Of a DNA stretch of 64,000 nt, positions 13,110 to 33,404 are shown one piece after another. The notes under the pieces were generated by a model. It was not told the origin of the DNA. It saw only the letters and a program-made list of their open reading frames with translations, and did not search any database. Where the stretch lies: positions 257,235 to 321,234 of the forward strand of contig JBAZFH010000002.1 of assembly GCA_041653535.1 (NCBI GenBank), read 5' to 3'. Made by a program: the position numbers and the translations under genes. This stretch comes from Patescibacteria group bacterium (GTDB lineage Bacteria > Patescibacteriota > Patescibacteriia > JACRDY01). Position 1 is the stretch's first letter; each line of letters begins with the position of its first letter.

Positions 13110-13121
13110 TTTACCTTCCCC

Positions 13122-19214: not shown

Positions 19215-19248
19215 TTAGTGTGTTAGTATGTGTATAGAATACACTAAG
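19215..19248. promoter_or_regulatory. palindromic operator candidate TTAGTGTgttagtatGTGTATagaATACACTAAG immediately upstream of nrtR
   Basis: Nested inverted repeats (GTGTAT-N3-ATACAC inside TTAGTGT...ACACTAA), ending 7 nt before the nrtR ATG. Related to the site before pnuC. Confidence 0.5.
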
Positions 19249-19255: not shown

Positions 19256-19933
19256 ATGGTCAAGAAATTAACCAAAAAATACAAATTTGCCACTATTGCT
19301 ACCGATGTGGTTATTTTTACCATCAAAGACGAAAAGCCGCAGGTACTACTGATTAAGATGAAGAAAAAACCTTTTGCTGACTCGTGGGCAGTACCGGGCG
19401 GGTTAGTACATGGTGATGAATCGGTTGACCGAGCGGCACGCCGTCATCTTTTTTCTAAAACCGGTCTCAAAGACGTTTATCTCGAACAGCTTTATACTTT
19501 TGGTAGTGTTGATCGCGATCCTTTTGGTCGGGTAGTGTCGGTTGCTTATTTTGCCCTGATTCCGAATGCCGACTTGAAACTAAAAACCACCAGTGAATAT
19601 GCCGGAGTGCAATGGTGTCCGGTAGATAAATTGCCAAAACTTGCCTATGACCACAAAGAGGTGGTGAGTAAAGCGGTAGAAAGACTGCAGGCTAAACTTG
19701 GTTATACCAATATTGTTTTTGGGCTGCTACCGCCAGAGTTTACTTTGTCGGAGCTACAAAAGACTTACGAAATAATACTCGGTAAGAAATTAGATAAAAG
19801 AAACTTTCGCAAAAAATTGTTTAGTCTGAAACTGGTGCAAAGTACCGGTGGTCGCAAAGCGGGGGATGCTAATAGACCGGCTGAGCTTTATCGTTTTGCC
19901 AGCAAACACCCGCAGCTAATCGAGATCCTTTAA
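19256..19933 (+). CDS. nrtR: Nudix-related transcriptional regulator NrtR-like (degenerate Nudix domain plus C-terminal winged-helix region)
   Basis: Nudix-like segment GGLVHGDESVDRAARRHLFSKTGL. Length about 225 aa. It heads a pnuC-nadR operon, the classic NrtR context. Confidence 0.55.
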   Translation: MVKKLTKKYKFATIATDVVIFTIKDEKPQVLLIKMKKKPFADSWAVPGGLVHGDESVDRAARRHLFSKTGLKDVYLEQLYTFGSVDRDPFGRVVSVAYFALIPNADLKLKTTSEYAGVQWCPVDKLPKLAYDHKEVVSKAVERLQAKLGYTNIVFGLLPPEFTLSELQKTYEIILGKKLDKRNFRKKLFSLKLVQSTGGRKAGDANRPAELYRFASKHPQLIEIL

Positions 19934-19958: not shown

Positions 19959-19977
19959 TAGTGTAATAAATACACTA
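19959..19977. promoter_or_regulatory. palindrome TAGTGTA-ataaa-TACACTA upstream of pnuC (candidate NrtR box)
   Basis: Perfect 7-bp inverted repeat with a 5-nt spacer. Shares GTGTA...TACAC half-sites with the nrtR-upstream site. Confidence 0.5.
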
Positions 19978-20016: not shown

Positions 20017-20601
20017 ATGAGTATCTTTGAAATCATCGGAGTGATATTTGGTGTCTGGTCAGTATATCTGACTGTAAAACAAAAAGTACTCAGTTGGCCG
20101 GTGGGGCTAGTCAGCGTCGTGGCGCTAGGCATAATGTTTTTCCAGATAAAACTTTACGCTGATGCCATGGAGCAGATTTATTACGTCATTACCGGCTTTG
20201 TCGGCTGGTATCTATGGAAATATGGGGGAGAGAAAAAAAGCGAACTAAAGGTTTCGCTACTAAACAACAAGCAGCGAGTGATCGGCGCCGGGATTGTCTT
20301 GGCACTATCAGCAGTACTTGGATATTTGCTCGACACTTATACCGACGCTTCACTGCCTTATCTGGATTCAGTCACTACAGTCATGAGTCTATGCGCGCAG
20401 CTACTGCTCACTAAAAAGATTTTCGAAAACTGGATTTTATGGATTATCGTCGACGTCATGGCACTTGGTATTTATACCTATAAAGGCGTCTATCTGACTA
20501 CCGGTCTTTACGTCATTTACCTAGTATTAGCTAGCGGCGGTTTTGTGCAGTGGTATAAATCACTAGTCGCTAACAAAAAGTATGTCAAAGAAACCATCTA
20601 A
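20017..20601 (+). CDS. pnuC: nicotinamide riboside transporter PnuC
   Basis: About 194 aa, 7-TM pattern. N-terminus IFEIIGVIFGVWSVYLTVKQKVLSWPVGLV is typical of PnuC. Confidence 0.75.
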   Translation: MSIFEIIGVIFGVWSVYLTVKQKVLSWPVGLVSVVALGIMFFQIKLYADAMEQIYYVITGFVGWYLWKYGGEKKSELKVSLLNNKQRVIGAGIVLALSAVLGYLLDTYTDASLPYLDSVTTVMSLCAQLLLTKKIFENWILWIIVDVMALGIYTYKGVYLTTGLYVIYLVLASGGFVQWYKSLVANKKYVKETI

Positions 20602-21649
20602 AAATCAAACTACTGGACTCGTGCTCGGCAAATTTGCTCCGTTTCACGCTGGGCACCAGTATCTGGTGGAAACCGCAATCAAGCAAACCGACAGGGTGAT
20701 TGTCCTGATTTACAATTGTCCGGAAACAATCGATATACCGCTTGATGTCCGTGCCGAATGGATTCGACAAATTTATCCGCAAGTGGAAGTGATAGAGGCT
20801 TGGGATGGACCGACCGAGTCAGGGCACGATCCGCGAGTGATAAAATTAAACGAAGATTATATTTTGCAAAAAATAAAAGAGCCGATCACGCATTTTTTTT
20901 GCAGTGAGTGGTATGGCGATCATGTTAGCAAGGCGCTTGGCGCTATTAACTGCGTGGTGGATGAGAAAAGAGAAACTTTTCCGGTGTCGGGAACGATAAT
21001 TCGTTCCAACCCACATGTTTACAAAAAATTTTTACATCCGGTGGTTTACAAAGACTTTGTAAAGAAAATTGTTTTTCTTGGTGCCGAGTCAACCGGTAAA
21101 ACCACCATTACTAGAGAGCTAGCCAAAATTTACAAAACCGAGTGGATGCCGGAACTAGGCAGAGAGTATTGGGAAAAAAACCAAATAGACGGAAAACTCT
21201 CGGAAGAGCAGCTGCTAGATCTAGCCTATCAGCATATAGAAAAAGAAGAAGAACTCCTTTTACGAGCGAACAGATATTTTTTTGCTGATACTAATGCTAT
21301 AACCACGGCAATGTTTTCCCGCTATTATCACGGTCATATCCATCCGCAACTGGAGTGTCTGGCAAGAAGAGTGGAATCTCGCTACGATTTGTATTTTGTT
21401 TGTGATATAGATATCCCTTATGAAGACGATGGTGCCAGGTCCGGCGCCGATCACAGACTAATTTTTCAGCAGCAGATAATAGAGGACCTAGAAAGAAGGG
21501 GGATAAACTATATTTTACTTCGTGGCGACTTGGGACAGCGGATGAGACGGGTAAGAGAATATCTAAACATGCTAGAAAAAGATCAAAAAATAGAGGAGAA
21601 TATTGGTTTTTTCTTGTATTTTAGTAAGATGTTAAGACAATTTGGCTAA
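20582..21649 (+). CDS. nadR: bifunctional NMN adenylyltransferase / ribosylnicotinamide kinase (NadR-like, no HTH domain)
   Basis: N-terminal (H/T)xGH motif GKFAPFHAGH (compare H. influenzae NadR GKFYPLHTGH). C-terminal P-loop kinase IVFLGAESTGKTTITRELA. Confidence 0.7.
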   Translation: MSKKPSKNQTTGLVLGKFAPFHAGHQYLVETAIKQTDRVIVLIYNCPETIDIPLDVRAEWIRQIYPQVEVIEAWDGPTESGHDPRVIKLNEDYILQKIKEPITHFFCSEWYGDHVSKALGAINCVVDEKRETFPVSGTIIRSNPHVYKKFLHPVVYKDFVKKIVFLGAESTGKTTITRELAKIYKTEWMPELGREYWEKNQIDGKLSEEQLLDLAYQHIEKEEELLLRANRYFFADTNAITTAMFSRYYHGHIHPQLECLARRVESRYDLYFVCDIDIPYEDDGARSGADHRLIFQQQIIEDLERRGINYILLRGDLGQRMRRVREYLNMLEKDQKIEENIGFFLYFSKMLRQFG

Positions 21650-21824
21650 ATCTTGACATTTTATATCTATTATGTTAAGTTTTGGGGTTAGAGCTGACGG
21701 TATTTAACACGTAGAAAAACAAAGAAAAAAGTAGCTAAAATCTGGCTAATTTTTTCTAGCTTTGATTGCAAATATCAAGGCTGAAGTGAACATTAAATTC
21801 AAAAACGAAGAAGGGAGGATATAG

Positions 21825-22622
21825 ATGGATGTTTTGTCTCGAAACAATGGGGTAACGACGATAACTTCGGATAGGGGTTTTACCAAGTCGTTTGCTCCGG
21901 GTCGGGTGTTTTTGCCCGATGAGTATCCGGAAGTGCTGCAGAAGTTTCTGCAGGGTCCAAACGTCGTGGTCATCGGCTTGACCGGCTATTCGTCGATCAA
22001 GTCCGAGCATTGTGCTCGTTGGGGGATTAAGCCCGGCGCTTATGAGTATGCGGTTCATAGCATGCTTACCAATTTAGTGAATGAACTGCGTACCGCCTAT
22101 CCCGGCATCGATATTCGCTTTGTCCACGGCGCTTCGGATATGGGCGTGGACAAGGAAGTTATTGCAGTCGGTGAAGAGCTTGGTGTCCCGCAACTCGGAT
22201 TTTCTTGTCCGGAATTTCTGTCATACGTCGACAACGAAAATCATGACTTTCCGATCTACGTCGGCGCCGATCAAGCGGACTACTCGGACAAGTTCATCCA
22301 GGCACTCGATATTCTAGTTGCGGCCAATGGTCGTAAGCAGGCGTTCATCCACGATATGTCGGCGGCGCTTAGCCACGCTAAATACATCGTGCCGATCAAT
22401 ATCGTGCAGGCGATTTCCAGTACTGGTGGTCCGGCAGCCATCAACGAAGACGGTACGATCGAAGACGCAACCGAGCTGTTTTATCAGCGGGTTGTCTATT
22501 TAGCTATCCAGTTTGGCATCGCCGGACAGGATGTCTGGGCTGAGCTCAACCAGAAACTTACCCAGGCGATCAAGGCAATCACTCGTAAGATTTTGCCGGC
22601 AAACGCTGCTTTTCCTATTTAA
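21825..22622 (+). CDS. hypothetical Rossmann-fold protein, SLOG/DprA/LOG-like (nucleotide-binding)
   Basis: VVVIGLTGYSS...FVHGASDMGVD...LGFSCPEF resembles the DprA/SLOG glycine-rich loops (compare DprA in this window: LAVVGTRR...SGLARGIDSTAH...LGTGLD). Embedded in the NAD island. Confidence 0.3.
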   Translation: MDVLSRNNGVTTITSDRGFTKSFAPGRVFLPDEYPEVLQKFLQGPNVVVIGLTGYSSIKSEHCARWGIKPGAYEYAVHSMLTNLVNELRTAYPGIDIRFVHGASDMGVDKEVIAVGEELGVPQLGFSCPEFLSYVDNENHDFPIYVGADQADYSDKFIQALDILVAANGRKQAFIHDMSAALSHAKYIVPINIVQAISSTGGPAAINEDGTIEDATELFYQRVVYLAIQFGIAGQDVWAELNQKLTQAIKAITRKILPANAAFPI

Positions 22623-22661
22623 CCGTTGATGATAGTCACACGAAAGGAAAGGAGATTTCCG

Positions 22662-23411
22662 ATGAAAAATGTTACTATTGGTCCGCATGACGCGGTCATT
22701 GCCGTCGATTTGTTTCAGAAGGCTTTTCGCTTCGGTGGCGGATTGCCGATAGTGGGCGGTGATGGTTTGGTTATTCCGGCGATTAACTTTATTTCCCTGC
22801 CGTGGGGATATGTTGTTGCCAGTATTGACCAGCATCAGCTGGGAAATATTTCTTTCGCCAGCTCGTACCGAAACGTGCCGGTACCGAAAATCGGTTATCC
22901 GGAAATAACCCTGGAGATGGTACGGAAAAACTGGGCGGATTATTACGTCGGTCCGGCTGCCAAGTTTACCGCGAAGCAGTTGGTTGATTATTTGGAAAAC
23001 GTCGTTTCCTGCTCGCAGGTTCTCTGGCCGAACCATGGTACGGTCGAAGCCGGTGACGGTGTTATTAGTCCGCCGTTTATCGAAGTGTCGCTCGACTACA
23101 TTCTGTTCAAGGGAACAGATGTGTTATGTGACAGCTACTCCGCTTTTGTCGACAATCTCGGTCGTCCGACCGGTCTTGCCGATGAATTGCGTCGATGCGG
23201 TATTAAGCGCGTTTTTTTGATTGGACTTGCTTTCGACTATTGCGTCGGTTGGTCAGCGCTCGACGGCGTGAAGGAAAGTTTCGAGGTCTACATTGTTGAA
23301 AATCTGACCAAGTCGGTCGGCTTTCCGGCTAATTCGGTCGAAGCGATGCGCGAGCAGCTTCTCGCGACCGGGGTGAAAATCATCACCACCGCCGACATCT
23401 CGACGATGTAA
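22662..23411 (+). CDS. pncA: nicotinamidase / isochorismatase-family hydrolase
   Basis: Catalytic-Cys context FLIGLAFDYCVGWS (compare PncA GIATDYCV). RBS AAGGAG before the ATG at 22662. Confidence 0.65.
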   Translation: MKNVTIGPHDAVIAVDLFQKAFRFGGGLPIVGGDGLVIPAINFISLPWGYVVASIDQHQLGNISFASSYRNVPVPKIGYPEITLEMVRKNWADYYVGPAAKFTAKQLVDYLENVVSCSQVLWPNHGTVEAGDGVISPPFIEVSLDYILFKGTDVLCDSYSAFVDNLGRPTGLADELRRCGIKRVFLIGLAFDYCVGWSALDGVKESFEVYIVENLTKSVGFPANSVEAMREQLLATGVKIITTADISTM

Positions 23412-23457
23412 AAAAAACAACACGTGCGGAGGGTGCTCTACGGAGTACCTTCCGCCC

Positions 23458-23520
23458 TAGAAAATTTGCACCAAAGAAATTTGGTTCAAGCTTTCTGGTC
23501 ACAACCACACGGCTGCGGCC
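23458..23520 (+). promoter_or_regulatory. conserved about 60-bp promoter/operator module, copy 1; core 24-bp palindrome TTGCACCAAA-GAAA-TTTGGTTCAA at 23466-23489
   Basis: AGAAAATTTGCACCAAAGAAATTTGGTTCAAGCTTTCTGGTCACAAC... Near-identical copies at 24750-24812 and 26380-26440. Each copy follows a GC hairpin and precedes a gene start by about 80 bp. Confidence 0.6.
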
Positions 23521-23600
23521 TAAAATGTTCTTTAAATTTCAGTTACTCATAAATCAACCAACCAACTTTTGTCCAAAAAAGTTCAGAAAGGGGATAGAAA

Positions 23601-24701
23601 ATGGTGAACAGAAGTAGGGAAGATTTTTTGCTTAGCCGTGTTTACGCGGCGCTCGTTGGTCTATGGATCGGCGATGGCATGGGTATGCCGGTGGAAATGA
23701 TGACACCGGAGCAGATCAAAGAGACAGTCGGTCGAGTCACTGGGTTTATTACGCCGGTGCAAAGGCATATCGGAGGCACGGCCTTCCTTCCGGCAGGTCA
23801 CTGGACCGATGACTGGCAGTTGGCGCGCGCTATTTTGCGGTCGCTAGTTGAATCTGGCGGCTACAACATCAATGATATCGTCGGGCAGCATTTGCTCGCC
23901 CTGAAAGAATCGACCATAGGATGGGGCAAGGCGACCAAAAACGAGCTTCTGAATATCCAGCGGTTTTTCGAAACCGGTGGGACCGAAGGTCGTAATCCAG
24001 CCACTTCGCCGCAGTTGATCGCCGGCCAGGGTACTGGCAATGGCGTGGCGATGAAAATCGCTGCGCTCGCGCTGTACCAAGTGTTGAAACAAGGCGGCTT
24101 TTATCGGCTGCCGCTCGTTACCCAAGTGAAAGAAGTGGGTCTACTGACTCACGCTGATCCTCGGGCGAGCGTTGCGGCGTTTGCTGTCGCCGCGGTGATT
24201 GGCATGGTTATGGAAAAGCCTTTTGAGCTTTTTTGGCCTGCCAAAAAATTTCAGCAGCAAAGGTTTTTGCGGCGGCTGATCGCTCTGACCGAATGGGCCG
24301 AGCAAGACGGTGGTTTGAAAAGCGTCAATTACACTGACCAGTTTTTTTCCGAAGCACTTGGTTATCTGGCTAGCAACAATGGATTACTCCTCGAAGGGTC
24401 GGAATATTTGCGCAAAATCGGTACGAACTGTTTCGCCTTGAATTCGGTGCCGTTTGCAATCGGTGTATTCTTGCGTCACCCGACAGACTTTCGCGCTGGA
24501 GTGCTTGAAGCGATCAACGCCGGCGGCGATACCGACACGACCGCGGCCATGGTTGGCGCGATGATCGGAGCCAACGTTGGTTTGGAAGGTATTCCTCTGG
24601 AGTGGCGACACTTTTTGATGGAACACTATAGCGATGACTACGGCGAATTGCTTTCCTTGGGCAGTGCGCTTTTCATGCAGGCCACGGGGAAGGTTGAGTA
24701 A
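23601..24701 (+). CDS. ADP-ribosylglycohydrolase family protein (DraG/ARH-like)
   Basis: N-terminal ALVGLWIGDGMGMPVEMM (the G.xGDAxG.P.E metal-site motif) and C-terminal GGDTDTTAAMVGAM. Confidence 0.7.
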   Translation: MVNRSREDFLLSRVYAALVGLWIGDGMGMPVEMMTPEQIKETVGRVTGFITPVQRHIGGTAFLPAGHWTDDWQLARAILRSLVESGGYNINDIVGQHLLALKESTIGWGKATKNELLNIQRFFETGGTEGRNPATSPQLIAGQGTGNGVAMKIAALALYQVLKQGGFYRLPLVTQVKEVGLLTHADPRASVAAFAVAAVIGMVMEKPFELFWPAKKFQQQRFLRRLIALTEWAEQDGGLKSVNYTDQFFSEALGYLASNNGLLLEGSEYLRKIGTNCFALNSVPFAIGVFLRHPTDFRAGVLEAINAGGDTDTTAAMVGAMIGANVGLEGIPLEWRHFLMEHYSDDYGELLSLGSALFMQATGKVE

Positions 24702-24749
24702 CTAAACAAACACGCGGCGGGCGTCTTTATAAAAAGGGCGTCCGCCGAC

Positions 24750-24812
24750 AGAAAATTTGTACTAAAGAAATTTGGTTCAAGCTTTCTAGTCGTAACCAAG
24801 GTTGTGACTAAA
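24750..24812 (+). promoter_or_regulatory. conserved promoter/operator module, copy 2; palindrome TTGTACTAAA-GAAA-TTTGGTTCAA at 24757-24780
   Basis: CAGAAAATTTGTACTAAAGAAATTTGGTTCAAGCTTTCTAGTCGTAACCAAGGTTGTGACT, with a downstream hairpin AGTCGTAACC/GGTTGTGACT. Confidence 0.6.
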
Positions 24813-24854
24813 ACGAACTTTACAACAAAATTTTTACGATAAAGGAGCAAAAGG

Positions 24855-26333
24855 ATGAAAATCGACAAAAATGACATTGCGGTTTACGGCGGCAGTTTTA
24901 GCCCGCCGGGAAACCACCATGTGAAGGTAGTGGAGGTGCTAATCGAAGCAGGGTTTCGGCGAATCATCGTCGTTCCTTGCGGCTATCGCGATGACAAAAA
25001 AACCCGAACTAACGACATCGAAAAACTGCATCGAGCAGTAATGTCGGATATGGCTTTTGGTCATTTGCCCGGTGTCGAGGTCGACCTGTTTGATCTTGAA
25101 AAAGACGTTTTTACCAGAACGTGGGATTTGGAACGTCGTTACAAAAACCAGGGTCGGGTTTGGCACGTCATCGGCGCTGATATGATCATCGGCGGGCGCG
25201 CTGGTGAGTCGGAAATCCAGCGGGAATGGGAACACGGCCGCGAACTGTGGAACAAGTCCAACTTCGTGGTTTTCACCCGTGATGGCTACAATCTTTTGAA
25301 AGAAGATTTACCGCCGCATAATGTGGTAATGACGGCAGCGGTAGAGACTGCAAAATCCAGTACGGAAATTCGGCGCGCTATCGCCGCTCACGAATCAATC
25401 GCTGATATGACCCCGCCGCTAGTGACGGATTATATCGAAAGATATCGTCTGTACAGTGCTGGGTTAACCGTGCGCAGCGGAGAAATAAATATTCATTCGC
25501 CGCGCCTTTTGATTATTTCTGATCCGGATAATTTGCGGGCGCAAGAGATAGCACGATATTTTTCGCGCTTTGCTTGTCCGCAAAAACCGAATATGATTTT
25601 GGTTGTCGGCGGCGACGGCACGATGCTGCGGGCGGTCAGAGAAAATTGGCGAAAACGTTTGCCGTTTTTTGGTATTAACGCCGGTCATCTGGGATTTTTG
25701 CTCAACCGTATCGAGGCATTGCCGGAAGAGTGGGAAGACGTTTTTGTTTCGCCATTTGTAGTGCATCAGTCGCCGTTGCTTTACGTGGAAACACGAAAGC
25801 ATCTGCATGATTGGAAAGGCGCTTTTGCCGTCAACGATGCCTGGGTGGAGCGGCAGACGCTGCAAGCCGCCTGGATCGAGCTGATTGTTCGTCAGCGCGC
25901 CAACGGTCATGTGACAACCGAAGAGTGGCATCTGGATAAACTGGTCGGTAATGGCGCGCTTGTTTCCACGGCAGCCGGGTCGACCTCTTATGCCCAACCG
26001 ATGGGTGCTCCGGCGATGTTAGTCGGTTCACCGCATTTGGTCTTGGTGGGAGACGATGTAAAATTTCCTGCCAACTGGGAGTATTCGACATTGGACTTGA
26101 ATCAAGAAGTTGAAATGGTCGGTTTGGACGGTAAAAAACGTCCTTTGCGTGGTTCGGTCGACGGTGTGGATTTGGGTCGAGTTCAAGCCATGCGGGTTCG
26201 TACTTCCAACATCGCCGCCGCCGAATTTGTTTTTGTCAAAGGGCAAGACCTGGCAGGAAAATTGGAAGAAATCCAATTTCCCGGAGCGATCAGTTCATCG
26301 GGCTGGCGCAAGAGGCCGACGACAAATTCGTAA
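24855..26333 (+). CDS. fusion protein: N-terminal nicotinate/nicotinamide-mononucleotide adenylyltransferase (NadD/NMNAT-like) plus C-terminal NAD+ kinase (NadK)
   Basis: N-terminal VYGGSFSPPGNHH (cytidylyltransferase (H/T)xGH motif). C-terminal NAD kinase motifs VVGGDGTMLRAV, INAGHLGFL and GSTSYAQPMGAP (GGDGT / NxGxLGFL / DGxxxxTxxGSTAYSxSAGG). Confidence 0.65.
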   Translation: MKIDKNDIAVYGGSFSPPGNHHVKVVEVLIEAGFRRIIVVPCGYRDDKKTRTNDIEKLHRAVMSDMAFGHLPGVEVDLFDLEKDVFTRTWDLERRYKNQGRVWHVIGADMIIGGRAGESEIQREWEHGRELWNKSNFVVFTRDGYNLLKEDLPPHNVVMTAAVETAKSSTEIRRAIAAHESIADMTPPLVTDYIERYRLYSAGLTVRSGEINIHSPRLLIISDPDNLRAQEIARYFSRFACPQKPNMILVVGGDGTMLRAVRENWRKRLPFFGINAGHLGFLLNRIEALPEEWEDVFVSPFVVHQSPLLYVETRKHLHDWKGAFAVNDAWVERQTLQAAWIELIVRQRANGHVTTEEWHLDKLVGNGALVSTAAGSTSYAQPMGAPAMLVGSPHLVLVGDDVKFPANWEYSTLDLNQEVEMVGLDGKKRPLRGSVDGVDLGRVQAMRVRTSNIAAAEFVFVKGQDLAGKLEEIQFPGAISSSGWRKRPTTNS

Positions 26334-26379
26334 AAATCAAACAAGTGGAGGGTGTTACCATAAGGCGCGCCCTCCACTA

Positions 26380-26440
26380 TAGAAAATTTGCACCAAAGAA
26401 ATTTGGTTCAAGCTTTCTGGTCACAACTACGGTTGCGGCC
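26380..26440 (+). promoter_or_regulatory. conserved promoter/operator module, copy 3; palindrome TTGCACCAAA-GAAA-TTTGGTTCAA at 26388-26411
   Basis: Identical to copy 1 over about 45 nt. Preceded by hairpin GTGGAGGGTG...CGCCCTCCAC. Confidence 0.6.
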
Positions 26441-26504
26441 AAAAAAGAACATTACAATAAACCAAAGGAAAAACAGTAATAATTGCGAGACAAGGAGAAA
26501 AAAG

Positions 26505-27761
26505 ATGAGACATCGAGATAAGCCTATTATTCAGTCTCTATTGGATATGGATTTTTACAAATTTACCATGGGTCAGTTCATTTTTCGTTATTATCCTGAC
26601 CTGCAGGTCAGGTTCGCTTTGACCAACCGTACCAAAAGCGTGCGTTTGGCTGACATGATTGACCTGGGACAACTGCGAGAAGAACTGGAACATTTGCGTA
26701 GCTTGCGGTTTACCAAAAGTGAACTGCATTATCTTCGTGGCACCAACGAGTACGGCGATCGAATGTTTGGTGAAGATTATCTCACCTTTTTGTCCGAACT
26801 TCGTATGCCCGAATTTCATTTGGAAAAGCGAAGCGATGGGCAAATTAATCTCTGGTCCGAAGGCGACTGGCCCTCGGTCTCTCCTGGGGAAACCCCCGGT
26901 CTGGCTATCTTGGCCGAACTGTACTGTCGGCATCTGACCAAAGACATGACCCGTTTCGAGCTCGAAGCGGTTCGCGCCAACGGCATCATGCGTTTGCAGG
27001 AAAAACACCGCAAGTTGCGCCAGTATCCGTTTATTAAATATTCGGATTTTGGTCATCGGCGCCGTGCTTACCGGGACTGGCATGATTTCGTTGTTAGTGT
27101 CGAGGCTGAAGAAATGGCTGGACAGTTTCTCGGTACTTCCGATGCTTGGCTGGCCATGAAATACGGTCTTCTTCCTATGGGCACCAATGCTCATGAGTTG
27201 GGAATGGTGATTGCGGCATTTTTGGCTATCACGGAAGGTGACGCCGGTATCCTGCGCGCCAATCGCGAGATCGTCGATAAGTGGTGGCAGATGTATGGTC
27301 AGGGTCTGTCGATTGCCTTGCCCGACACTTTCGGCTCGGATACTTTTTTGCAGACAATGAACGGTCTCGACGCGGTGAAATGGAAGGGTTTCCGTCACGA
27401 CAGCGGTGACCCGATCGAATTCGGCGAAAAGATCATTAATTTTTACGAAGGGTTCGGTGTTGATCCGCGAGAACACATAATCGTCTTTTCCGACGGTCTC
27501 AATGTGGACGAGATTATTCGTCTAGCCCTGCACTTCAAGGACAGGATCAAGGTGTCTTTTGGTTGGGGTACGACTCTGACCAATGACCTGGGTTTCAAAA
27601 ACCTGTCCATTGTCATCAAGGTGGCTTCGGCTAACGGCCAACCGGCGGTGAAACTGTCTGACAATATCGCCAAAGCGGTCAGTCCGTCGCCGGAAGAGAT
27701 TGAACGTTACAAGCGTTTGTTCGGCTACCATGCGCAGTTCGAAGTGGTTCCTACGGTTTAA
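26505..27761 (+). CDS. pncB: nicotinate phosphoribosyltransferase
   Basis: N-terminus IIQSLLDMDFYKFTMGQ plus NAPRTase core. RBS AAGGAGAAAAAAG before the ATG at 26505, which is in frame with the longer ORF-track call. Confidence 0.8.
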   Translation: MRHRDKPIIQSLLDMDFYKFTMGQFIFRYYPDLQVRFALTNRTKSVRLADMIDLGQLREELEHLRSLRFTKSELHYLRGTNEYGDRMFGEDYLTFLSELRMPEFHLEKRSDGQINLWSEGDWPSVSPGETPGLAILAELYCRHLTKDMTRFELEAVRANGIMRLQEKHRKLRQYPFIKYSDFGHRRRAYRDWHDFVVSVEAEEMAGQFLGTSDAWLAMKYGLLPMGTNAHELGMVIAAFLAITEGDAGILRANREIVDKWWQMYGQGLSIALPDTFGSDTFLQTMNGLDAVKWKGFRHDSGDPIEFGEKIINFYEGFGVDPREHIIVFSDGLNVDEIIRLALHFKDRIKVSFGWGTTLTNDLGFKNLSIVIKVASANGQPAVKLSDNIAKAVSPSPEEIERYKRLFGYHAQFEVVPTV

Positions 27762-27988
27762 CAATGTTCCCGGGCATCCCATGTGGTGCCCGGTTCTGAC
27801 CAGGGAAGAGTAAAAATGGCACGCGGCACGAAGCACGTGGCAAAAAAAATGGCACGCGGCGAGCCTACGCAGCCGTGCGCTATTTATTCATCCTGGTCAG
27901 GAGAAAGCAGTACTTTGAAAATTTAAACAAAAAAATCAATTCACGTTTTTTTTCGTTTAAGAAAATACGAAGAAAGGAAGGTGGTTAA

Positions 27989-30040
27989 ATGAAGGCAGAT
28001 CGTTTTCTTGATATCCGTAATCATGGGTTTTTTCGTGTGGCAGCGGTAATTCCGCGGGTGTTTTTGGCTGACCCCAAGGTAAACGGCGAAGAGCACCTGA
28101 AGGTTTTACGGACATTGTACGACGAGGGCGTTATGTATGCTGTTTTTCCGGAGCTTAGCCTGACGGGTTATAGCAACGGAGACCTTTTTCAGCAAAAGAT
28201 TTTGCTGGAAGAGGCTCTGACAGAGCTGAAATTTTTGGTTAGCGAGACTGCCAGTTGGTCGATGATTATTACGGTTGGTATGCCGCTTTTGATCGAAGAT
28301 CAACTTTTTAACGTCGCCGTGACTTTTTGTCGCGGTGAGGTACTGGGTATCGCGCCGAAAAGCTATCTTCCCAACTATCGCGAATTCTATGAAGGACGGT
28401 GGTTTACCAAAGCTGCCGATGCTCGGAAAAAGGAAGTCGAGCTTTTTGGTCGAATGGTTCCTTTTGGTGCTGACGTTCTGATTCGTTCGACGTTAAATCG
28501 GAATTTCATTCTTCACACCGAAATTTGTGAAGATATCTGGGTACCGATTTCTCCCGGCGCTATCGCGGCGATTTCCGGAGCTACCGTACTCGTCAATTTG
28601 TCGGCGTCTAATATTACTATCGGTAAAACGGAATATCGTCGGCAGTTGGCTCTTAATTCGTCGGGTAAAAACGTCGCCGCTCAAATTTACGTCGCTGCCG
28701 GTTTTGGCGAATCGACCAGTGATTTGTCTTGGGATGGCAGCGCATTTGTCGCTGAGCGTGGTACCATGCTCAGCGAATCAAAGCGTTTTCAGATGGAAAG
28801 TCATTATATCATTGCCGATGTCGACGTTGATTCTCTGCAGACGGAAAGAGCGCGGCAAAATTCTTTTCAGGAAAACGCGGCGGTTTATCGGCAGCCGATG
28901 CGTATGGCGGTGGCGGAAGACAAGTCCGTTCCGGACTTCCTTAATACCTATGTCTTTGATGAATTGCGGCGTAATATTGAGCCGCAGCCATTTGTGCCGT
29001 CGGACCCGACTCGTCGTAGCGAACGATGCTACGAAACATTCAATATCCAGGCAGGAGCGTTGGCACAGCGCTTGCTCCAGTTTCCGGTTGAAAGCCGCAA
29101 AATCGTTTTAGGGGTTTCCGGAGGGCTGGATTCGACCCACGCTTTTTTGATCGCGGCTCATACCATGGATATCATGGGTTTGCCGCGCAGCAATATTTTG
29201 GCGGTAACTATGCCGGGGTTTGGGACAACGGGTCGGACGTATCATAATGCCGTTGCCTTGATTAAAGCAATCGGTGCTACGTTCTATGAGATTCCGATCA
29301 AGAATATTTCAACTGTCATGTTTGAAAACATCGGCTATGATCCCTCTTTGGAAGGGGATAAAAAAAGCTTGGTGTTTGAAAACGTGCAGGCCTGGGAACG
29401 GACAATGACACTCTTCTCGGTTTCGGCCAAAGAAGGTGGTATTGTTCTTGGCACTGGTGATCTGTCCGAACTGTTAATCGGCTGGGCGACCTATGGTGGT
29501 GATCACATGTCCCACTACGGCGTCAACGCCGATGTGCCCAAAACCCTGATTCGCTATTTGGTGTCTTGGGCGCGGGACGAGATTTTTGCCAAAGAAGCGC
29601 GGGTTCAGACGGTCCTCAATGACATTTTGGACACTCCGGTTTCGCCTGAATTATTGCCGACTACCAGGGATGGCAATATTGCTCAGAAGACCGAAGACAT
29701 TGTCGGTCCATATGAGTTGATCGACTTTTTCGGATATTGGATCGTTCGTTTTGGTTTTACGCCGTACAAGGTGGCGCGCCTGGCATTGCATGCTTTCGAC
29801 GGCAAATACACTATCGGCGAAATCAAAAATTGGCTCGGCTACTTTGTTGACGATGACGGAAAAAAACATCTCGGTTTTCTCCCGCGGTTTTTCCGCAATC
29901 AGTTCAAGCGCAACTGTTTACCGGACGGACCCAAGGTTGGTCTTACTTCTGTTTCGCCTCGTGGCGACTGGCGTATGCCGTCGGATGCGCGCGTAACTTC
30001 CTGGATGGACAGCTGGGAGGAGATTCCCTATTTATATTAA
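27989..30040 (+). CDS. nadE: glutamine-dependent NAD+ synthetase (nitrilase-like domain plus NAD synthetase domain)
   Basis: N-terminal CN-hydrolase domain (FPELSLTGY, catalytic ICEDIW) and C-terminal PP-loop VLGVSGGLDSTHAF. Confidence 0.85.
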   Translation: MKADRFLDIRNHGFFRVAAVIPRVFLADPKVNGEEHLKVLRTLYDEGVMYAVFPELSLTGYSNGDLFQQKILLEEALTELKFLVSETASWSMIITVGMPLLIEDQLFNVAVTFCRGEVLGIAPKSYLPNYREFYEGRWFTKAADARKKEVELFGRMVPFGADVLIRSTLNRNFILHTEICEDIWVPISPGAIAAISGATVLVNLSASNITIGKTEYRRQLALNSSGKNVAAQIYVAAGFGESTSDLSWDGSAFVAERGTMLSESKRFQMESHYIIADVDVDSLQTERARQNSFQENAAVYRQPMRMAVAEDKSVPDFLNTYVFDELRRNIEPQPFVPSDPTRRSERCYETFNIQAGALAQRLLQFPVESRKIVLGVSGGLDSTHAFLIAAHTMDIMGLPRSNILAVTMPGFGTTGRTYHNAVALIKAIGATFYEIPIKNISTVMFENIGYDPSLEGDKKSLVFENVQAWERTMTLFSVSAKEGGIVLGTGDLSELLIGWATYGGDHMSHYGVNADVPKTLIRYLVSWARDEIFAKEARVQTVLNDILDTPVSPELLPTTRDGNIAQKTEDIVGPYELIDFFGYWIVRFGFTPYKVARLALHAFDGKYTIGEIKNWLGYFVDDDGKKHLGFLPRFFRNQFKRNCLPDGPKVGLTSVSPRGDWRMPSDARVTSWMDSWEEIPYLY

Positions 30041-30246
30041 CATTCAACAAAACCCCTGTGTCAATAGATGATGCGGGGGTTTTTAATTAGTATATAGATC
30101 TTAGTATAGAGTATATAGAGTATATAGGGTAAATACAAATACTAAATACTATATATCAAGACCTAAATACTTTGTCTTTGTCGGTCTTAGCATGTTGTGA
30201 TAGACTTAAGGAGTAATATAGAAATAATTCATAATCTCTAAACCCT

Positions 30247-31272
30247 ATGACTAATTGGTCAACTTGGTCTATGCCAAAAAAAATCGGCGCGGTAGCTGGG
30301 CTGGTTATCGTGCTTTTGGTAGTAGTAGGTTTTGTCTTGTCTTTAGTGCCCACCGCCTACAACGCTAATAAAAACGGAAGAATATTTAGTTTTGCCGAAT
30401 CTGATGATGCCGGATTTGCAACCGGAGCAGGCAGTGCTCGCAATTCCGTTGTCATGAACTCTTTAGATTTAGCAGTCAGTGAAGAAATGGTTCCCAGCGT
30501 CGTCAGTCAAAAAGCGGTAGTCGGCAATCAAATTGTGGCACAAGATGGTGAGATGACCGCCAAAAAAATTATCCGTGACGGTAGTCTTGGTTTATTTGTA
30601 ATCAGTCCCGAAGAAGCAATAAAGCAGGTGGAAGAACTGGCTAAGGTCGCCGGCGGTTTTGTGCAAAATTCACAGATTTACGAAGTGCGTAACGGTGTTA
30701 AAGCCGGTTCGGTCATTATTCGAGTGCCGGCTGACAAATTTGAAGCGACAATCACCGAAATAAAAAAATTAGCCAAAGAAATTGACAGGGAAGAAGTTGA
30801 TTCCAGGGATGTTACCGAGCAGTTTATTGATTTAGAAGCGCGGCTACATAATGCACAGGCGGAAGAAGCCAGATATTTGGAAATCATGGGTCGAGCGCAA
30901 ACCATTAAAGACACCCTTGATGTTTCTGAACGTCTGGGCAGTGTTCGCGAGCGAATAGAAATATTAACCGGGCAGCTGCAATATTTGTCTCGACAGGTTG
31001 ATATGTCGACAATCAATGTTAGCCTGTCGTCTTATGACGATGTGAAAGTTTTCGGACTACGCTGGAGACCGCTTTATGAGATCAAAAAATCTTTCCGCGA
31101 AATGCTGACAGGTTTGACTTCATATATCGATACTATGTTGGCGTTGATTATCAATCTGCCGGTTATTATTCTTTGGATTGTCACTGTCGGTTTTATTTTG
31201 TGGGTTATTTGGAAGCTATTACGATGGATTAATAGACGTTTTATCAAAAAAAATGCTCCAGATATCAGTTAG
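30247..31272 (+). CDS. DUF4349-like membrane-anchored coiled-coil protein
   Basis: N-terminal TM, central coiled coil (EARLHNAQAEEARYLEIMGRAQTIKD...), C-terminal TM. The architecture is typical of DUF4349. Confidence 0.5.
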   Translation: MTNWSTWSMPKKIGAVAGLVIVLLVVVGFVLSLVPTAYNANKNGRIFSFAESDDAGFATGAGSARNSVVMNSLDLAVSEEMVPSVVSQKAVVGNQIVAQDGEMTAKKIIRDGSLGLFVISPEEAIKQVEELAKVAGGFVQNSQIYEVRNGVKAGSVIIRVPADKFEATITEIKKLAKEIDREEVDSRDVTEQFIDLEARLHNAQAEEARYLEIMGRAQTIKDTLDVSERLGSVRERIEILTGQLQYLSRQVDMSTINVSLSSYDDVKVFGLRWRPLYEIKKSFREMLTGLTSYIDTMLALIINLPVIILWIVTVGFILWVIWKLLRWINRRFIKKNAPDIS

Positions 31273-31481
31273 TGAAAATAAGTAAAAAATGGCTTAAATT
31301 ACAGTAAAGAACATAAAAATAGATCGTCTAAAGTAGGCGGTCTGTTTTATTATTGACAAAAAATAATAAATAGGCTGTATTGTTATAATATCCAAAAATA
31401 GAAGAAGGTCTGTTTTTGGGTCTGAAATTTGAAAAAAATAAGGAAAAAGTTTTCATTCCACGATAACAGAAGGAGGTCTAG

Positions 31482-33404
31482 ATGAATTATTGGTTTATTG
31501 GTTTGTTAGTTGCTTTTCTGCCGGTGTTTATTTTTTCCGTTTTAGGCGGGATGGTGAGCCGCCGCAATGTTTACAGTACGGTAATAGCCGGTTCGTTTTT
31601 CGGCGCGGCCTACTACTTTTTATGGGTTTTGATCGCGTGGAAAACTGCTGACGGATTCTATGGTCCGTTGCCGTATTTCGGTAGTCTCTTTTTGGCGATA
31701 GTTTTGGGTGGTACTATTGCTACAATTTCCGAGAGTGGCGGTAAGGGATCTGCCGCGCCGGCGGTTATCGGAGCTATATTTATTTTGTTGCCAGCAGTGG
31801 TTGTTACCTGCCAGGGCACCGACATGGTGAGCTCGCAAGAGAAACTAGCTCTTGCCGGCAAAATCGAAATCATCGACGATTCGAATTCCGCTATGACGCC
31901 GGTCGACACCGCACATATCTCGCTCGTCGATGAGGGGATGGCTAAAGTTGCAGCGCAAAATGCGCTCTCCAAGATCCATCTCGAAGACGGTGCGATCGCC
32001 GGCTCGCGTTACTCTATCGGGCACGGCACTAAAGTATTTGCCGATGGGCAGCTTTGGTGGGTGTTCCCTCTGGAGTTTCAAGGTTGGCTGAAATGGCGTG
32101 TCAATCCGGAGGTCCCGGGTTATCTGCGCGTTTCAGCGGAAGATCCTTTTGCTGAGCCGCAGCCTGTTTTGAAGGACAAGACGGGCGAGAAACTCCATAT
32201 CAAATATTTGGGTACCGCTTGCTGGGGATACCAGCTCGAGCGGCACCTGCGCTACAACGGGTACATGAACAAGTACCTGCTTGATTACACCTTTGAACCC
32301 GACGACAACTGGAAGCCGTTCTATACGGTCACGGTTGCCGAAAGAACGATCGGTTTCGAAGGTCTTAAGGTGCTGGGCGTCGCCGTCGTTGATGTTCAGA
32401 CGGGCAAGATTGAATTTCAGGAGATCGGTAAGATCGCTCCCTGGATCGACCGAGTTGTCCCGCTGTATGTCATCGATTATAACCTCAAAAATTGGGGTAT
32501 GTATTCGAATGCCACTTGGTGGTATAACCTTTTGCACAAAGACAAGAGTCAGGCGCCGACTCCTGGTTGGTTTATGACCTATGATCCGGAACATGGGGCG
32601 CAGTGGTTCAGCGGGTTTACCTCGCTGAACAGTGACGACCACGCCATGACTGGGTTTACCGTCACCAATGCTCGTGACGGCGTTACCCGGTTTTTCCGCG
32701 CTTCGGGGTTGACTGAACAAAAGTCTTACGACGCGGCAAATTCGCTCTGGAGCAACTTCGCTGGCGTCGAGCCCTGTGAAATGGTTCCGTACAACATCGA
32801 GGGCGTACAGACGTACGTTATACCGATGAAGTACCAGGGGCAATTTCGCGGGGTTTCCCTTGTTGCTTTGAATAACGTGAATATCAAGGCAAGTGGGAAT
32901 ACTTTCGACCAGGCTTTTGCTAGTTACCGTGCTGTGCGGGCGGCAACTGCTGAGGGTCGAATCGCTCCTGACGGCGGTGCTGCGACGGTTTCGGAAAGTC
33001 GTGGTACTATCGATCGTGTCGGTATGCCTGTGGCAAGCGGCAATATGGTGATTTTCTACTTCACCATGCGAGACATTGCCAAACGTTTTCAAGTGACCGA
33101 TTCGGTTTCCAGTCCCGGCGCAGTCCTGATGCGTTCGGGCGATCAAGCGGTTTGTCGTTATACTTCCGGTCACGCCGCGACGATCTCTTGCGACAGTCTC
33201 GAGATCATCGGCCTGAATTTTTCGGATGACAATCCGGCGCAGGTACGGTTGAACGCCAATCAGGCGCAGGTCAAGCAGGAAGAAAAGCGAGTCGACACCG
33301 ACCAGACTCGCGACCAGTTGCTGAATAGCGACCGGCTCAAAAAAGTTGATCCGCAGGCGTTGCAGCAGTTCCTGAACTCTCAACAGAGTCAGGGCGGCAA
33401 ATAG
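31482..33404 (+). CDS. membrane protein with four N-terminal TM helices and a large extracytoplasmic domain; function unknown
   Basis: 640 aa. RBS AGGAGG. GC-rich coding. Confidence 0.5.
   Translation: MNYWFIGLLVAFLPVFIFSVLGGMVSRRNVYSTVIAGSFFGAAYYFLWVLIAWKTADGFYGPLPYFGSLFLAIVLGGTIATISESGGKGSAAPAVIGAIFILLPAVVVTCQGTDMVSSQEKLALAGKIEIIDDSNSAMTPVDTAHISLVDEGMAKVAAQNALSKIHLEDGAIAGSRYSIGHGTKVFADGQLWWVFPLEFQGWLKWRVNPEVPGYLRVSAEDPFAEPQPVLKDKTGEKLHIKYLGTACWGYQLERHLRYNGYMNKYLLDYTFEPDDNWKPFYTVTVAERTIGFEGLKVLGVAVVDVQTGKIEFQEIGKIAPWIDRVVPLYVIDYNLKNWGMYSNATWWYNLLHKDKSQAPTPGWFMTYDPEHGAQWFSGFTSLNSDDHAMTGFTVTNARDGVTRFFRASGLTEQKSYDAANSLWSNFAGVEPCEMVPYNIEGVQTYVIPMKYQGQFRGVSLVALNNVNIKASGNTFDQAFASYRAVRAATAEGRIAPDGGAATVSESRGTIDRVGMPVASGNMVIFYFTMRDIAKRFQVTDSVSSPGAVLMRSGDQAVCRYTSGHAATISCDSLEIIGLNFSDDNPAQVRLNANQAQVKQEEKRVDTDQTRDQLLNSDRLKKVDPQALQQFLNSQQSQGGK

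What the first reader, a model, noticed from the sequence alone, without database searches (positions are those of the whole stretch)
24855..26333. Single polypeptide fusing an NMN/NaMN adenylyltransferase domain to an NAD kinase domain
The N-terminal about 190 aa carry the (H/T)xGH nucleotidyltransferase motif (GGSFSPPGNHH) typical of NadD/NMNAT. The C-terminal about 290 aa carry all three NAD kinase signatures (GGDGT, NxGxLGFL, GSTSYAQPMG). A fused enzyme would channel NaMN/NMN to NAD(P). I am not aware of this arrangement being a standard described architecture, so it is either a lineage-specific fusion or a mis-joined gene pair.
Basis: partly seen in the sequence, partly recalled or inferred. 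Interest (0 to 1): 0.55.

Follow-up and report, generated by a model that had tools for sequence, protein, structure and literature searches.

The report
Fused NadD–NAD kinase gene, widespread family
One real gene in a Patescibacteria genome joins a nicotinate-mononucleotide adenylyltransferase-like domain to an NAD kinase domain; the same fusion occurs in hundreds of bacterial species, is already labelled in databases, but I found no study of it.

Summary
Window 24855-26333 (+) is one uninterrupted 492-aa ORF, and an independent assembly reproduces it exactly. Residues 5-201 are NadD-like and 216-477 are a complete NAD kinase.

It is neither a mis-join nor lineage-specific. At least 434 species-level genomes encode relatives, across Verrucomicrobiota, Planctomycetota, Acidobacteriota, Myxococcota and Patescibacteria. 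IMG already names some [quoted passage not shown]. Nine literature searches found no description, and no solved structure covers both halves.

- The N-terminal motif is not (H/T)xGH but a family-conserved [G/A/T]xHH.
- The gene sits in a salvage cluster (NrtR, PnuC, NadR, PncA, ARH, fusion, PncB, NadE). The N-domain most likely makes NaAD, so NadE intervenes and direct channelling to NADP is unlikely.
- This copy alone (1 of 120) has Asn for the Asp that contacts nicotinamide in solved NAD kinases.

Side finding: a roughly 118-nt three-hairpin RNA-like element, with covariation and no Rfam match, flanks the fusion gene. It recurs in another organism's equivalent cluster.

Verdict: a real, moderately interesting, divergent member of an uncharacterised but catalogued fusion family.

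The parts
24855..26333 (+). Single ORF of 492 aa: the NadD-like / NAD kinase fusion (NCBI MFA5358827.1)
24842..24847 (+). AAGGAG ribosome-binding site, 7 nt before the ATG
   Evidence: sequence
24855..25460 (+). N-terminal NadD-like nucleotidyltransferase domain (aa 1-202)
   Evidence: Pfam PF01467 aa 10-174. NCBIfam NadD models aa 5-201. 1kam aligned over 7-201. Profile E 5e-19.
24888..24920 (+). GGSFSPPGNHH: variant of the (H/T)xGH motif. Family form GGSFNPP[G/A/T]xHH.
   Evidence: pos1 G111/A7/T1/S1; pos3 H118/Q2; pos4 H119/Q1 of 120
25356..25373 (+). SSTEIR: second nucleotidyltransferase motif (ISxTxxR type). R173 is kept in 119 of 120 members.
25461..25499 (+). Short inter-domain linker (aa 203-215)
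   Evidence: pLDDT about 85-95 in this stretch
25500..26285 (+). C-terminal NAD kinase domain (aa 216-477), complete fold
   Evidence: NCBIfam PRK04761 aa 239-475. PDB sequence hits. Foldseek TM 0.65-0.82 normalised to solved NAD kinases.
25608..25622 (+). GGDGT motif. D254 is invariant in 120 of 120.
25677..25700 (+). NAGHLGFL motif (NxGxLGF)
25947..26012 (+). GNGALVSTAAGSTSYAQPMGAP: the Gly-rich NAD-binding segment. It includes N366 (nt 25950-25952) where 119 of 120 relatives and the solved NADKs aligned here have Asp, and P382 where relatives have S or A.
   Evidence: residue roles from PMC10087438
26295..26330 (+). C-terminal tail (aa 481-492), predicted disordered and absent from most relatives
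24702..24820 (+). Three-hairpin intergenic element, copy 2, directly upstream of the fusion gene
26333..26451 (+). Three-hairpin intergenic element, copy 3, directly downstream of the fusion gene
23412..23531 (+). Three-hairpin intergenic element, copy 1, between the PncA-like gene and ARH
23601..24701 (+). ADP-ribosylglycohydrolase (upstream neighbour)
   Evidence: Pfam PF03747 E 4e-54
22626..23411 (+). Isochorismatase-family, nicotinamidase (PncA)-like gene
26505..27761 (+). Nicotinate phosphoribosyltransferase PncB. The true start is probably ATG 26505, not TTG 26388.
27989..30040 (+). Glutamine-dependent NAD synthase NadE
   Evidence: NCBIfam PRK02628 at 832 bits, cut-off 473
19256..19933 (+). 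NrtR (Nudix-related, ADP-ribose-responsive regulator of NAD genes)
19229..19245 (.). Candidate NrtR box (GTGTA-N5-TACAC core), upstream of nrtR
   Evidence: consensus type from PMC2330246
19960..19976 (.). Candidate NrtR box (GTGTA-N5-TACAC core), upstream of pnuC-nadR
20017..21649 (+). PnuC transporter (20017-20601) and NadR-type NMN adenylyltransferase / ribosylnicotinamide kinase (20582-21649; canonical HAGH motif)

Best explanation
This is a genuine bifunctional enzyme of NAD(P) synthesis. It is a divergent Patescibacteria member of a widespread two-domain family. The N-terminal domain belongs to a distinct NadD subfamily with a [G/A/T]xHH motif in place of HxGH. It most likely adenylylates nicotinate mononucleotide (from PncA and PncB) to deamido-NAD. 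The separate NadE next door amidates that to NAD. The C-terminal domain is a short-type NAD kinase that phosphorylates NAD to NADP. The fusion therefore joins two non-consecutive steps of one pathway. Its benefit is more likely fixed stoichiometry, co-regulation or a shared oligomeric scaffold than direct substrate channelling. Shown: one gene, both folds, motif conservation, pathway context, spread. Inferred: both activities, NaMN preference, the reason for fusion.
For: One ORF, independently re-assembled. Both domains pass Pfam cut-offs. The N half aligns end to end with bacterial NadD structures (1kam, 5e-19) and the C half with NAD kinases (7mh7, 4e-19). The AlphaFold2 model has pLDDT 90.1 and pTM 0.89. 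The kinase half superposes on full NADK structures with TM 0.65-0.82. Catalytic and binding residues are conserved in 120 members: HH 118-119, R173 119, GGDG Asp 120, N275 116, N327/D328 112/117, Y379 119. The variant NadD also exists as a complete stand-alone gene (197-224 aa) with the same xHH motif in NrtR-linked NAD clusters (L070, L073, L077, L078, L079). In L073 and L079 an NrtR box sits directly in front of it. In three-domain relatives a canonical HxGH NadD lies upstream. Two of them (P0176, P0197) have lost both His in the variant domain, and P0226 keeps only the second. That is the pattern expected if HH is catalytic where it is the only NadD. Context here and in L006, L009, L014, L043, L045, L065, L078 is the Preiss-Handler set PncA/PncB/NadE with no other NadD in the locus. 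A separate NadR-type NMNAT next to PnuC covers the NMN route.
Against: No activity has been measured for any member, and I found no publication. The N-domain motif departs from the canonical (H/T)xGH, and all NCBIfam NadD and NadK equivalog scores fall below their trusted cut-offs. NCBI names the protein only 'NAD(+)/NADH kinase'. This copy alone has N366 in place of the Asp that contacts the nicotinamide in solved NADKs, and P382 where relatives have S or A, so its kinase half may be impaired or altered. Only 64 kb of the genome was visible, so another nadD or nadK elsewhere cannot be excluded. NaMN versus NMN preference cannot be read from sequence.
Confidence: 0.65

Rival explanations
1. 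It is an NAD kinase whose N-terminal NadD-derived domain is no longer an enzyme. That domain instead acts as a nucleotide-sensing or scaffolding module that regulates or stabilises the kinase.
For: The HxGH motif is non-canonical. NadD equivalog scores are below cut-off. Three-domain relatives keep this domain with a degenerate motif behind a canonical NadD, which shows it can persist without its His residues, that is, with a structural role. A pTM of 0.89 suggests tight packing against the kinase. NCBI calls it only a kinase.
Against: HH, the GxFxPP segment and the SxxxR arginine are 98-99% conserved in two-domain members. The same variant domain occurs as a stand-alone gene in NAD clusters under NrtR boxes, which makes no sense for a regulatory appendage. 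The PncB/NadE clusters need a NaMN adenylyltransferase, and none other is present in those loci.
Confidence: 0.15
2. The N-domain uses NMN to make NAD directly and hands it to the fused kinase, so NMN -> NAD -> NADP runs on one polypeptide with channelling.
For: The NadD/NMNAT family includes dual-specificity enzymes (established knowledge). The predicted arrangement of the two domains is rigid. PnuC and a ribosylnicotinamide kinase domain nearby could supply NMN.
Against: The profile is much closer to bacterial NaMN-preferring NadD (5e-19) than to eukaryotic NMNAT (1e-7). The immediate neighbours here and in seven other loci are PncA, PncB and NadE, which make and consume the deamido intermediates. 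The NMN route already has its own NadR-type adenylyltransferase with a canonical HAGH motif.
Confidence: 0.12
3. In this particular copy the kinase half has changed specificity. With Asn instead of Asp in the nicotinamide sub-site, it phosphorylates the deamido-NAD made by its own N-domain, giving NaADP. The two fused steps would then be consecutive.
For: D366N is unique among 120 members. The equivalent Asp (PaNADK D176', LmNADK1 D150') hydrogen-bonds the group in the nicotinamide sub-site. An amide side chain would tolerate a carboxylate better than a carboxylate side chain would (inference).
Against: It is a single conservative substitution. The other 119 members keep Asp, so the family as a whole is not built this way. 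NadE is not known to accept NaADP (my own knowledge, not tested). The change could equally be neutral or mildly deleterious in a fast-evolving genome.
Confidence: 0.05
4. It is an assembly or sequencing artefact that joins two adjacent genes.
For: Nothing beyond the general possibility. Split versions of the two genes do exist in other genomes (L078).
Against: The ORF is identical in an independent Logan assembly. More than 120 homologues have the same continuous architecture and length. The linker is conserved. The model across the junction is confident.
Confidence: 0.01

Closest known systems
NadD, nicotinate-mononucleotide adenylyltransferase (EC 2.7.7.18), e.g. B. subtilis NadD, PDB 1kam
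   Same: Same fold family (PF01467). End-to-end alignment over about 190 residues. GxFxP segment, final His of the signature and the SxTxxR motif. Same pathway context next to PncB and NadE.
   Different: The signature is PP[G/A/T]xHH instead of PxHxGH. Scores fall below the NCBIfam equivalog cut-offs (79.7 vs 112.45 for TIGR00482). It is fused to a kinase. Substrate preference is untested.
NadK / PpnK, NAD kinase (EC 2.7.1.23), e.g. P. aeruginosa 7mh7, L. monocytogenes NADK1; closest NCBIfam model PRK04761 (257-aa type)
   Same: GGDG, NxGxLGF and GSTxY motifs. Full two-lobed fold with TM 0.65-0.82. N327/D328 and Y379 are equivalent to PaNADK N146/D147 and Y189.
   Different: It carries an N-terminal NadD-like domain. 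The family has Ala for the adenine-contact Thr (Pa T184). This copy has N366 for Asp (Pa D176') and P382 for Ser (Pa S192), plus a 10-residue insert at aa 346-359. Its score of 103.9 is below the cut-off of 211.
Other multi-domain NAD-pathway enzymes: NadR (NMNAT + ribosylnicotinamide kinase), NadM-Nudix, and the archaeal bifunctional NADP phosphatase/NAD kinase (NCBIfam PRK14076)
   Same: Two enzymes of NAD(P) metabolism on one chain. A NadR-type protein is encoded in the same cluster.
   Different: The domain pair differs. I found no publication or solved structure for NadD + NadK. In NadR the fused steps are consecutive. Here they probably are not.
Uncharacterised database family 'NAD kinase/nicotinic acid mononucleotide adenylyltransferase' (IMG naming), e.g. 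in Kolteria novifilia Pan216 (NZ_CP036279.1, locus L042)
   Same: Same architecture, length, motifs and linker, at 42-50% identity.
   Different: The window's protein is the most divergent sampled branch. It has the unique D366N, a 10-residue insert and a 12-residue tail. It sits in a salvage cluster, whereas most PVC and Acidobacteriota copies stand alone.

Membership tests
NadD / NMNAT nucleotidyltransferases | Rossmann-like cytidylyltransferase fold, Pfam PF01467 above its gathering score | tested here: met
   40.2 bits against cut-off 21, aa 10-174. Full-length alignment to 1kam, 5db4 and 2h29.
NadD / NMNAT nucleotidyltransferases | Canonical (H/T)xGH signature in the first loop | tested here: not met
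   PPGNHH aligns with PPHNGH of 1kam. The family form is [G/A/T]xHH, and only the last His matches the canonical position.
NadD / NMNAT nucleotidyltransferases | Second signature ISxTxxR near the C-terminus | tested here: met
   SSTEIR at aa 168-173. R173 is kept in 119 of 120.
NadD / NMNAT nucleotidyltransferases | Score above the NCBIfam equivalog trusted cut-off | tested here: not met
   TIGR00482 at 79.7 against 112.45. PRK00071.1-3 at 78.9 against 150.
NadD / NMNAT nucleotidyltransferases | NaMN (or NMN) adenylyltransferase activity | not testable with these tools
   Supported only by context: PncA, PncB and NadE as neighbours, stand-alone homologues under NrtR boxes.
NAD kinase (NadK/PpnK) | GGDG motif with the catalytic Asp | tested here: met
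   GGDGT at aa 252-256. D254 is kept in 120 of 120.
NAD kinase (NadK/PpnK) | NxGxLGF motif and ALN(D/E) NAD-contact pair | tested here: met
   NAGHLGFL at aa 275-282. N327/D328 align with PaNADK N146/D147.
NAD kinase (NadK/PpnK) | Gly-rich DGxxVxTxxGSTAY segment, including the nicotinamide-site Asp | tested here: inconclusive
   GSTSY, T377 and Y379 are present. But the Asp is Asn (N366) in this copy only, 1 of 120. The Asp's role is taken from PMC10087438 and PMC7660225.
NAD kinase (NadK/PpnK) | Complete two-lobed NAD kinase fold | tested here: met
   Foldseek top 50 hits are all NAD kinases, with 266-315 aligned columns and TM 0.65-0.82 normalised to target.
NAD kinase (NadK/PpnK) | Score above Pfam and NCBIfam cut-offs | tested here: inconclusive
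   Pfam PF01513 at 40.3 passes its cut-off of 25.5. NCBIfam PRK04761 at 103.9 is below its cut-off of 211.
Two-domain NadD-NadK fusion family (database-only) | NadD-like domain, short conserved linker, then NadK in one ORF of about 455-495 aa | tested here: met
   95-98% query coverage with more than 120 homologues, E 1e-115 to 1e-131. Alignments A1 and A4.
NrtR regulon | NrtR operator (21-bp palindrome type with GT-N7-AC core) in front of the gene or its operon | tested here: inconclusive
   Boxes lie at 19229 and 19960, before nrtR and pnuC. None lies directly before the fusion. Co-transcription on the same strand is possible but not shown. In L073 and L079 the box directly precedes the stand-alone NadD-like gene.

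The most novel reading that the evidence does not exclude
The roughly 118-nt three-hairpin element that brackets the fusion gene is an undescribed cis-acting RNA class dedicated to NAD-salvage operons. Three copies occur in this cluster and two at equivalent places in another organism's cluster. Compensatory changes occur in all helices, and no Rfam family matches. It may be a ligand- or protein-sensing switch that sets the expression of each cistron, including the NadD-NadK fusion.
Probability: 0.15. Interest if true: 0.7.

Novelty: new variant of a known kind. Interest (0 to 1): 0.36.

Why it matters
NadD and NadK are essential enzymes and antibacterial targets. A natural fusion found in hundreds of species shows that the two can work as one unit. 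These species include cultured Planctomycetota and many Verrucomicrobiota and Acidobacteriota. The fusion also defines a NadD subfamily with an altered catalytic signature ([G/A/T]xHH), which should be tested before annotation pipelines keep calling these proteins plain 'NAD kinase'. For Patescibacteria, the cluster documents a full salvage route to NADP with a regulator, in organisms usually regarded as dependent on their hosts for cofactors. The flanking structured RNA element may give a handle on how such operons are controlled. None of this overturns current understanding. It fills a gap in annotation and offers a clean biochemical target.

Tried and rejected
- **Phage or giant-virus origin.** I considered this because of the one-strand gene order and the tRNAs. 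I rejected it: the window carries adk, map, recO, aaRS, scpAB, parAB, pth, dprA, topA and der, PHROG hits are weak, and NCBI labels the contig Patescibacteria.
- **Mis-assembly.** Rejected.
- **Literature.** Nine full-text searches with varied wording found no description of the fusion.
- **AFDB50 fold search.** The library was not available, so UniProt-level naming of the architecture could not be checked.
- **Rfam.** Nothing but tRNAs at gathering threshold, and nothing relevant at E<=5 over the cluster. The known NAD+ riboswitch classes are therefore excluded for the intergenic element.
- **Metagenome exact-pattern scan for the element.** It found only the same organism.
- **First NrtR-box pattern.** It had a one-base spacing error and found nothing. 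I corrected it.
- **NrtR box directly upstream of the fusion.** None found.
- **Promoter and terminator consensus scans.** Not above shuffled expectation.
- **Integron attC reading of the repeated element.** I considered and dropped it. The element is three separate hairpins rather than one long imperfect hairpin, and the genes form one coherent pathway. This is inference.
- **Eukaryotic-NMNAT affinity of the N-domain.** The 'GSFNP' resemblance suggested it, but the profile is far closer to bacterial NadD.
- **Covariance-model rescan with five copies.** It gave only marginal extra hits.
Full report
**1. The observation**

Window 24855-26333 (+) is one ORF of 492 aa from ATG to stop. An AAGGAG ribosome-binding site lies 7 nt upstream. 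Pfam gives CTP_transf_like at aa 10-174 (40.2 bits, cut-off 21) and NAD_kinase (40.3 bits, cut-off 25.5). NCBIfam NadD models cover aa 5-201 (E about 3e-22), and the NAD kinase model PRK04761 covers aa 239-475 (E 8e-30). All of these are below their equivalog cut-offs, so both halves are divergent.

The same ORF appears at 100% identity in a separate Logan assembly (L001). A JGI metagenome contig matches window 23202-25158 exactly (L082). The protein is on record as NCBI MFA5358827.1, 'MAG: NAD(+)/NADH kinase [Patescibacteria group bacterium]', on a 323-kb contig. A mis-join is effectively excluded.

**2. What the two halves are**

The N half aligns end to end with bacterial NadD structures (1kam, E 7e-12 alone and 5e-19 with a family profile). 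Eukaryotic NMNAT reaches only 1e-7, over the C-terminal motif. The C half aligns with bacterial NAD kinases (7mh7, 4e-19).

An AlphaFold2 model built on 25 family members is confident (pLDDT 90.1, pTM 0.89), and only residues 481-492 are disordered. Foldseek against the PDB returns only NAD kinases in the top 50. They cover the whole kinase fold (TM 0.65-0.82 normalised to target) but never more than about 45% of the query. No solved chain contains both domains.

**3. The motifs**

The N-terminal signature is not (H/T)xGH. PPHNGH of B. subtilis NadD aligns with PPGNHH here. In 120 fusion proteins the residues are as follows:

| Position | Residues found |
|---|---|
| Signature, position 1 | G111 / A7 / T1 / S1 |
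| Signature, position 3 | H118 / Q2 |
| Signature, position 4 | H119 / Q1 |
| SxxxR arginine (R173) | 119 of 120 |
| GGDG Asp (D254) | 120 of 120 |
| N275 | 116 |
| N327 / D328 | 112 / 117 |
| Y379 | 119 |

I took residue roles from the P. aeruginosa NADK paper. Sub-site N is formed by D176' from the second monomer, S192, D147 and Y189. Sub-site A is formed by N146, T184 and T187 (PMC10087438). In L. monocytogenes NADK1, Asp150 hydrogen-bonds the group in sub-site N (PMC7660225). Using the alignment, D176 maps to N366 and S192 to P382. D366 is Asp in 119 of 120 members, and only the window's protein has Asn. Position 382 is S or A elsewhere and Pro only here. The window's kinase half therefore has an unusual nicotinamide pocket. 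It also has a 10-residue insert (aa 346-359) and a 12-residue tail.

**4. Spread**

The word-indexed search returned 660 hits. The best 120 are all full-length (95-98% coverage, 42-49% identity, 451-526 aa). Source names come from Planctomycetota, Verrucomicrobiota and Patescibacteria. IMG product names include 'NAD kinase/nicotinic acid mononucleotide adenylyltransferase'.

They include Prosthecobacter, Luteolibacter, Gemmataceae, the cultured Kolteria novifilia Pan216, Blastocatellia, Chloracidobacterium, Polyangia, Gemmatimonadota and several Patescibacteria lineages. An exhaustive HMMER search of 1.84 billion representatives gave 258 clusters at E<=1e-30, and most of the top 150 are full-length fusions. 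In a neighbour-joining tree the phyla form their own clades. The window's protein sits on a long branch next to another Patescibacteria copy. The fusion is old and mostly inherited vertically. It is not lineage-specific.

**5. Is the N-domain an enzyme?**

Three comparisons bear on this.

- The same variant domain occurs as a complete stand-alone gene (197-224 aa, GGSFNPP[G/C]xHH, ending just after the 'LY' motif) in L070, L073, L077, L078 and L079. L078 carries NrtR, NadE, stand-alone NadD-like, PncA, stand-alone NadK and PncB, which is the unfused equivalent of this cluster.
- In L073 and L079 an NrtR-type box lies directly between nrtR and that gene.
- Relatives of 633-763 aa (P0176, P0226, P0197) carry a canonical NadD domain (GGAFDPIHxGHL) in front of the variant domain and the kinase. 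Their variant domains read DPPSLSDR, DPPSKYHR and DPPTSAQV. Two have lost both His and one keeps only the second.

Loss of His only where a canonical NadD is present in cis suggests the HH pair is catalytic in the two-domain form. Retention of the degenerate domain suggests it also has a structural role beside the kinase. This is inference, not measurement.

**6. Context and likely mechanism**

The window is a cellular genome of Patescibacteria type. From 16 to 30 kb, all on the + strand, it encodes:

- Prs
- NrtR
- PnuC
- a NadR-type NMNAT/ribosylnicotinamide kinase with a canonical HAGH motif
- a conserved hypothetical (21825-22622)
- a PncA-like nicotinamidase
- an ADP-ribosylglycohydrolase (ARH)
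- the fusion
- PncB
- a glutamine-dependent NadE

The same NrtR/PncA/fusion/PncB/NadE neighbourhood recurs in L006, L009, L014, L043, L045 and L065. Most PVC and Acidobacteriota copies stand alone.

The simplest pathway reading is nicotinamide -> nicotinate (PncA) -> NaMN (PncB) -> NaAD (fusion, N-domain) -> NAD (NadE) -> NADP (fusion, C-domain). PnuC and NadR form a parallel riboside route. Under this reading the fused reactions are not consecutive.

Candidate NrtR boxes (GTGTA-N5-TACAC core, the GT-N7-AC type described in PMC2330246) lie at 19229 and 19960. None lies directly before the fusion.

**7. Comparison with what is known**

Each half belongs to a well-known enzyme family, with the departures listed in the membership table. 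Fusions within NAD metabolism are known: NadR, NadM-Nudix and the archaeal NADP phosphatase/NAD kinase. Nine full-text searches found no paper on NadD-NadK, and there is no structure. The architecture is, however, already catalogued and partly named in IMG. I therefore rate it a new variant of a known kind. The window's copy is a divergent member of it rather than a discovery in itself.

**8. Side finding: a structured intergenic element**

Three spacers share a roughly 118-nt element whose 37-nt core occurs nowhere else in the window (0 expected by chance):

- 23412-23531, between the PncA-like gene and ARH
- 24702-24820, between ARH and the fusion
- 26333-26451, between the fusion and PncB

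Each copy folds into three hairpins with z-scores of -5.9 to -7.4. H1 is GC-rich, starts 10-14 nt after the stop codon and has a different sequence in each copy. H2 is conserved and has a GAAA loop. H3 is the third hairpin.

A covariance model found two more copies in L009, a different organism whose fusion is about 45-49% identical. One lies directly upstream of its fusion gene and one directly after its ARH gene. On the five copies:

| Measure | Observed | Shuffled control | Slid controls |
|---|---|---|---|
| Cells paired | 93.6% | 79.6% | 38-54% |
| Pairs changed on both sides (of 36) | 17 | 7.4 +/- 1.9 (0 of 500 shuffles reach 17) | at most 4 |

The alignment was fitted to the model, which favours the structure. 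Rfam has no match. A rescan gave only marginal extra hits, but they fall in analogous spacers.

The ribosome-binding sites lie 35-70 nt downstream and outside the structure, and no U-tract follows H1 or H3. A classical riboswitch expression platform is therefore not evident. An intercistronic processing and stability module, or a protein-binding site, is at least as likely as a ligand sensor.

**9. Verdict**

The finding is real and correctly located. The domain assignment is right. The 'mis-join' and 'lineage-specific' alternatives are wrong. The motif reading and the channelling mechanism need correcting. Interest is moderate. The fusion is a widespread, uncharacterised bifunctional enzyme with an altered NadD signature. 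This copy has a unique pocket substitution, and an undescribed structured RNA element lies on both sides of the gene.

Noticed in passing
window 23412-23531, 24702-24820, 26333-26451 (+); L009 5828-5966 and 8462-8571 (+): A roughly 118-nt three-hairpin intergenic element is repeated between NAD-salvage genes, including both sides of the fusion gene. It has a conserved 37-nt core, compensatory changes in all helices and no Rfam match. It also occurs in a second organism's equivalent cluster. Function unknown.
   Followed up: partly
window 19229-19245 and 19960-19976; also L025, L046, L073, L078, L079: Candidate NrtR operator boxes (GTGTA-N5-TACAC core) lie before nrtR and before pnuC-nadR. The same box recurs next to nrtR in other loci, and directly before stand-alone NadD-like genes in L073 and L079.
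   Followed up: partly
window 8989-11978 (+): Diversity-generating retroelement. The 3' end of a 58% GC ORF (variable repeat 9891-10009) matches a template repeat at 10388-10506 at 81% identity. Within the repeat, nearly all differences fall at template adenines. The reverse transcriptase at 10901-11978 is split into two overlapping ORFs, which suggests a frameshift.
   Followed up: partly
window about 21800-34000: The NAD sub-cluster and some neighbours have about 48-52% GC against about 37-43% for most of the window. This suggests foreign origin or a different compositional constraint. Other high-GC patches are at 8-10 kb and 12-18 kb.
   Followed up: no
window 26388-26505: The mechanical ORF call for PncB starts at TTG 26388, but that stretch is occupied by the repeated element. 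The real start is very likely ATG 26505, preceded by AAGGAG, which matches the N-terminus of the L078 PncB.
   Followed up: yes
proteins P0176, P0226, P0197: Three-domain relatives: a roughly 90-aa N-terminal segment, then a canonical NadD (HxGH), then the variant NadD-like domain, then NAD kinase. The variant domain's His pair is lost in two of them and only the second His is kept in P0226.
   Followed up: partly
protein P0191: A 779-aa relative with a CobT-like phosphoribosyltransferase domain (DBI_PRT, which uses NaMN) in front of the NadD-like and NAD kinase domains. I did not check whether this is a gene-calling artefact.
   Followed up: no
window 21825-22622 (+); L043 5070-5852: A 265-aa protein with no Pfam or NCBIfam match sits between nadR and the PncA-like gene. 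A 41% identical homologue occupies the same place in the Uhrbacteria cluster. It is a conserved unknown member of these NAD clusters.
   Followed up: no
window 12054-13850 (-): A XopQ-like nucleoside hydrolase (E 1.6e-48 to NF041355) and a Nudix protein lie on the opposite strand just upstream of the NAD cluster. A perfect 21-bp palindrome, AGGATGTATCAGATACATCCT, lies at 12020.
   Followed up: no
window 45653-46053: A small tRNA cluster: tRNA-Met (-), tRNA-Leu(CAA) and a second tRNA-Met (+). A tRNA-Asn lies at 8138.
   Followed up: no
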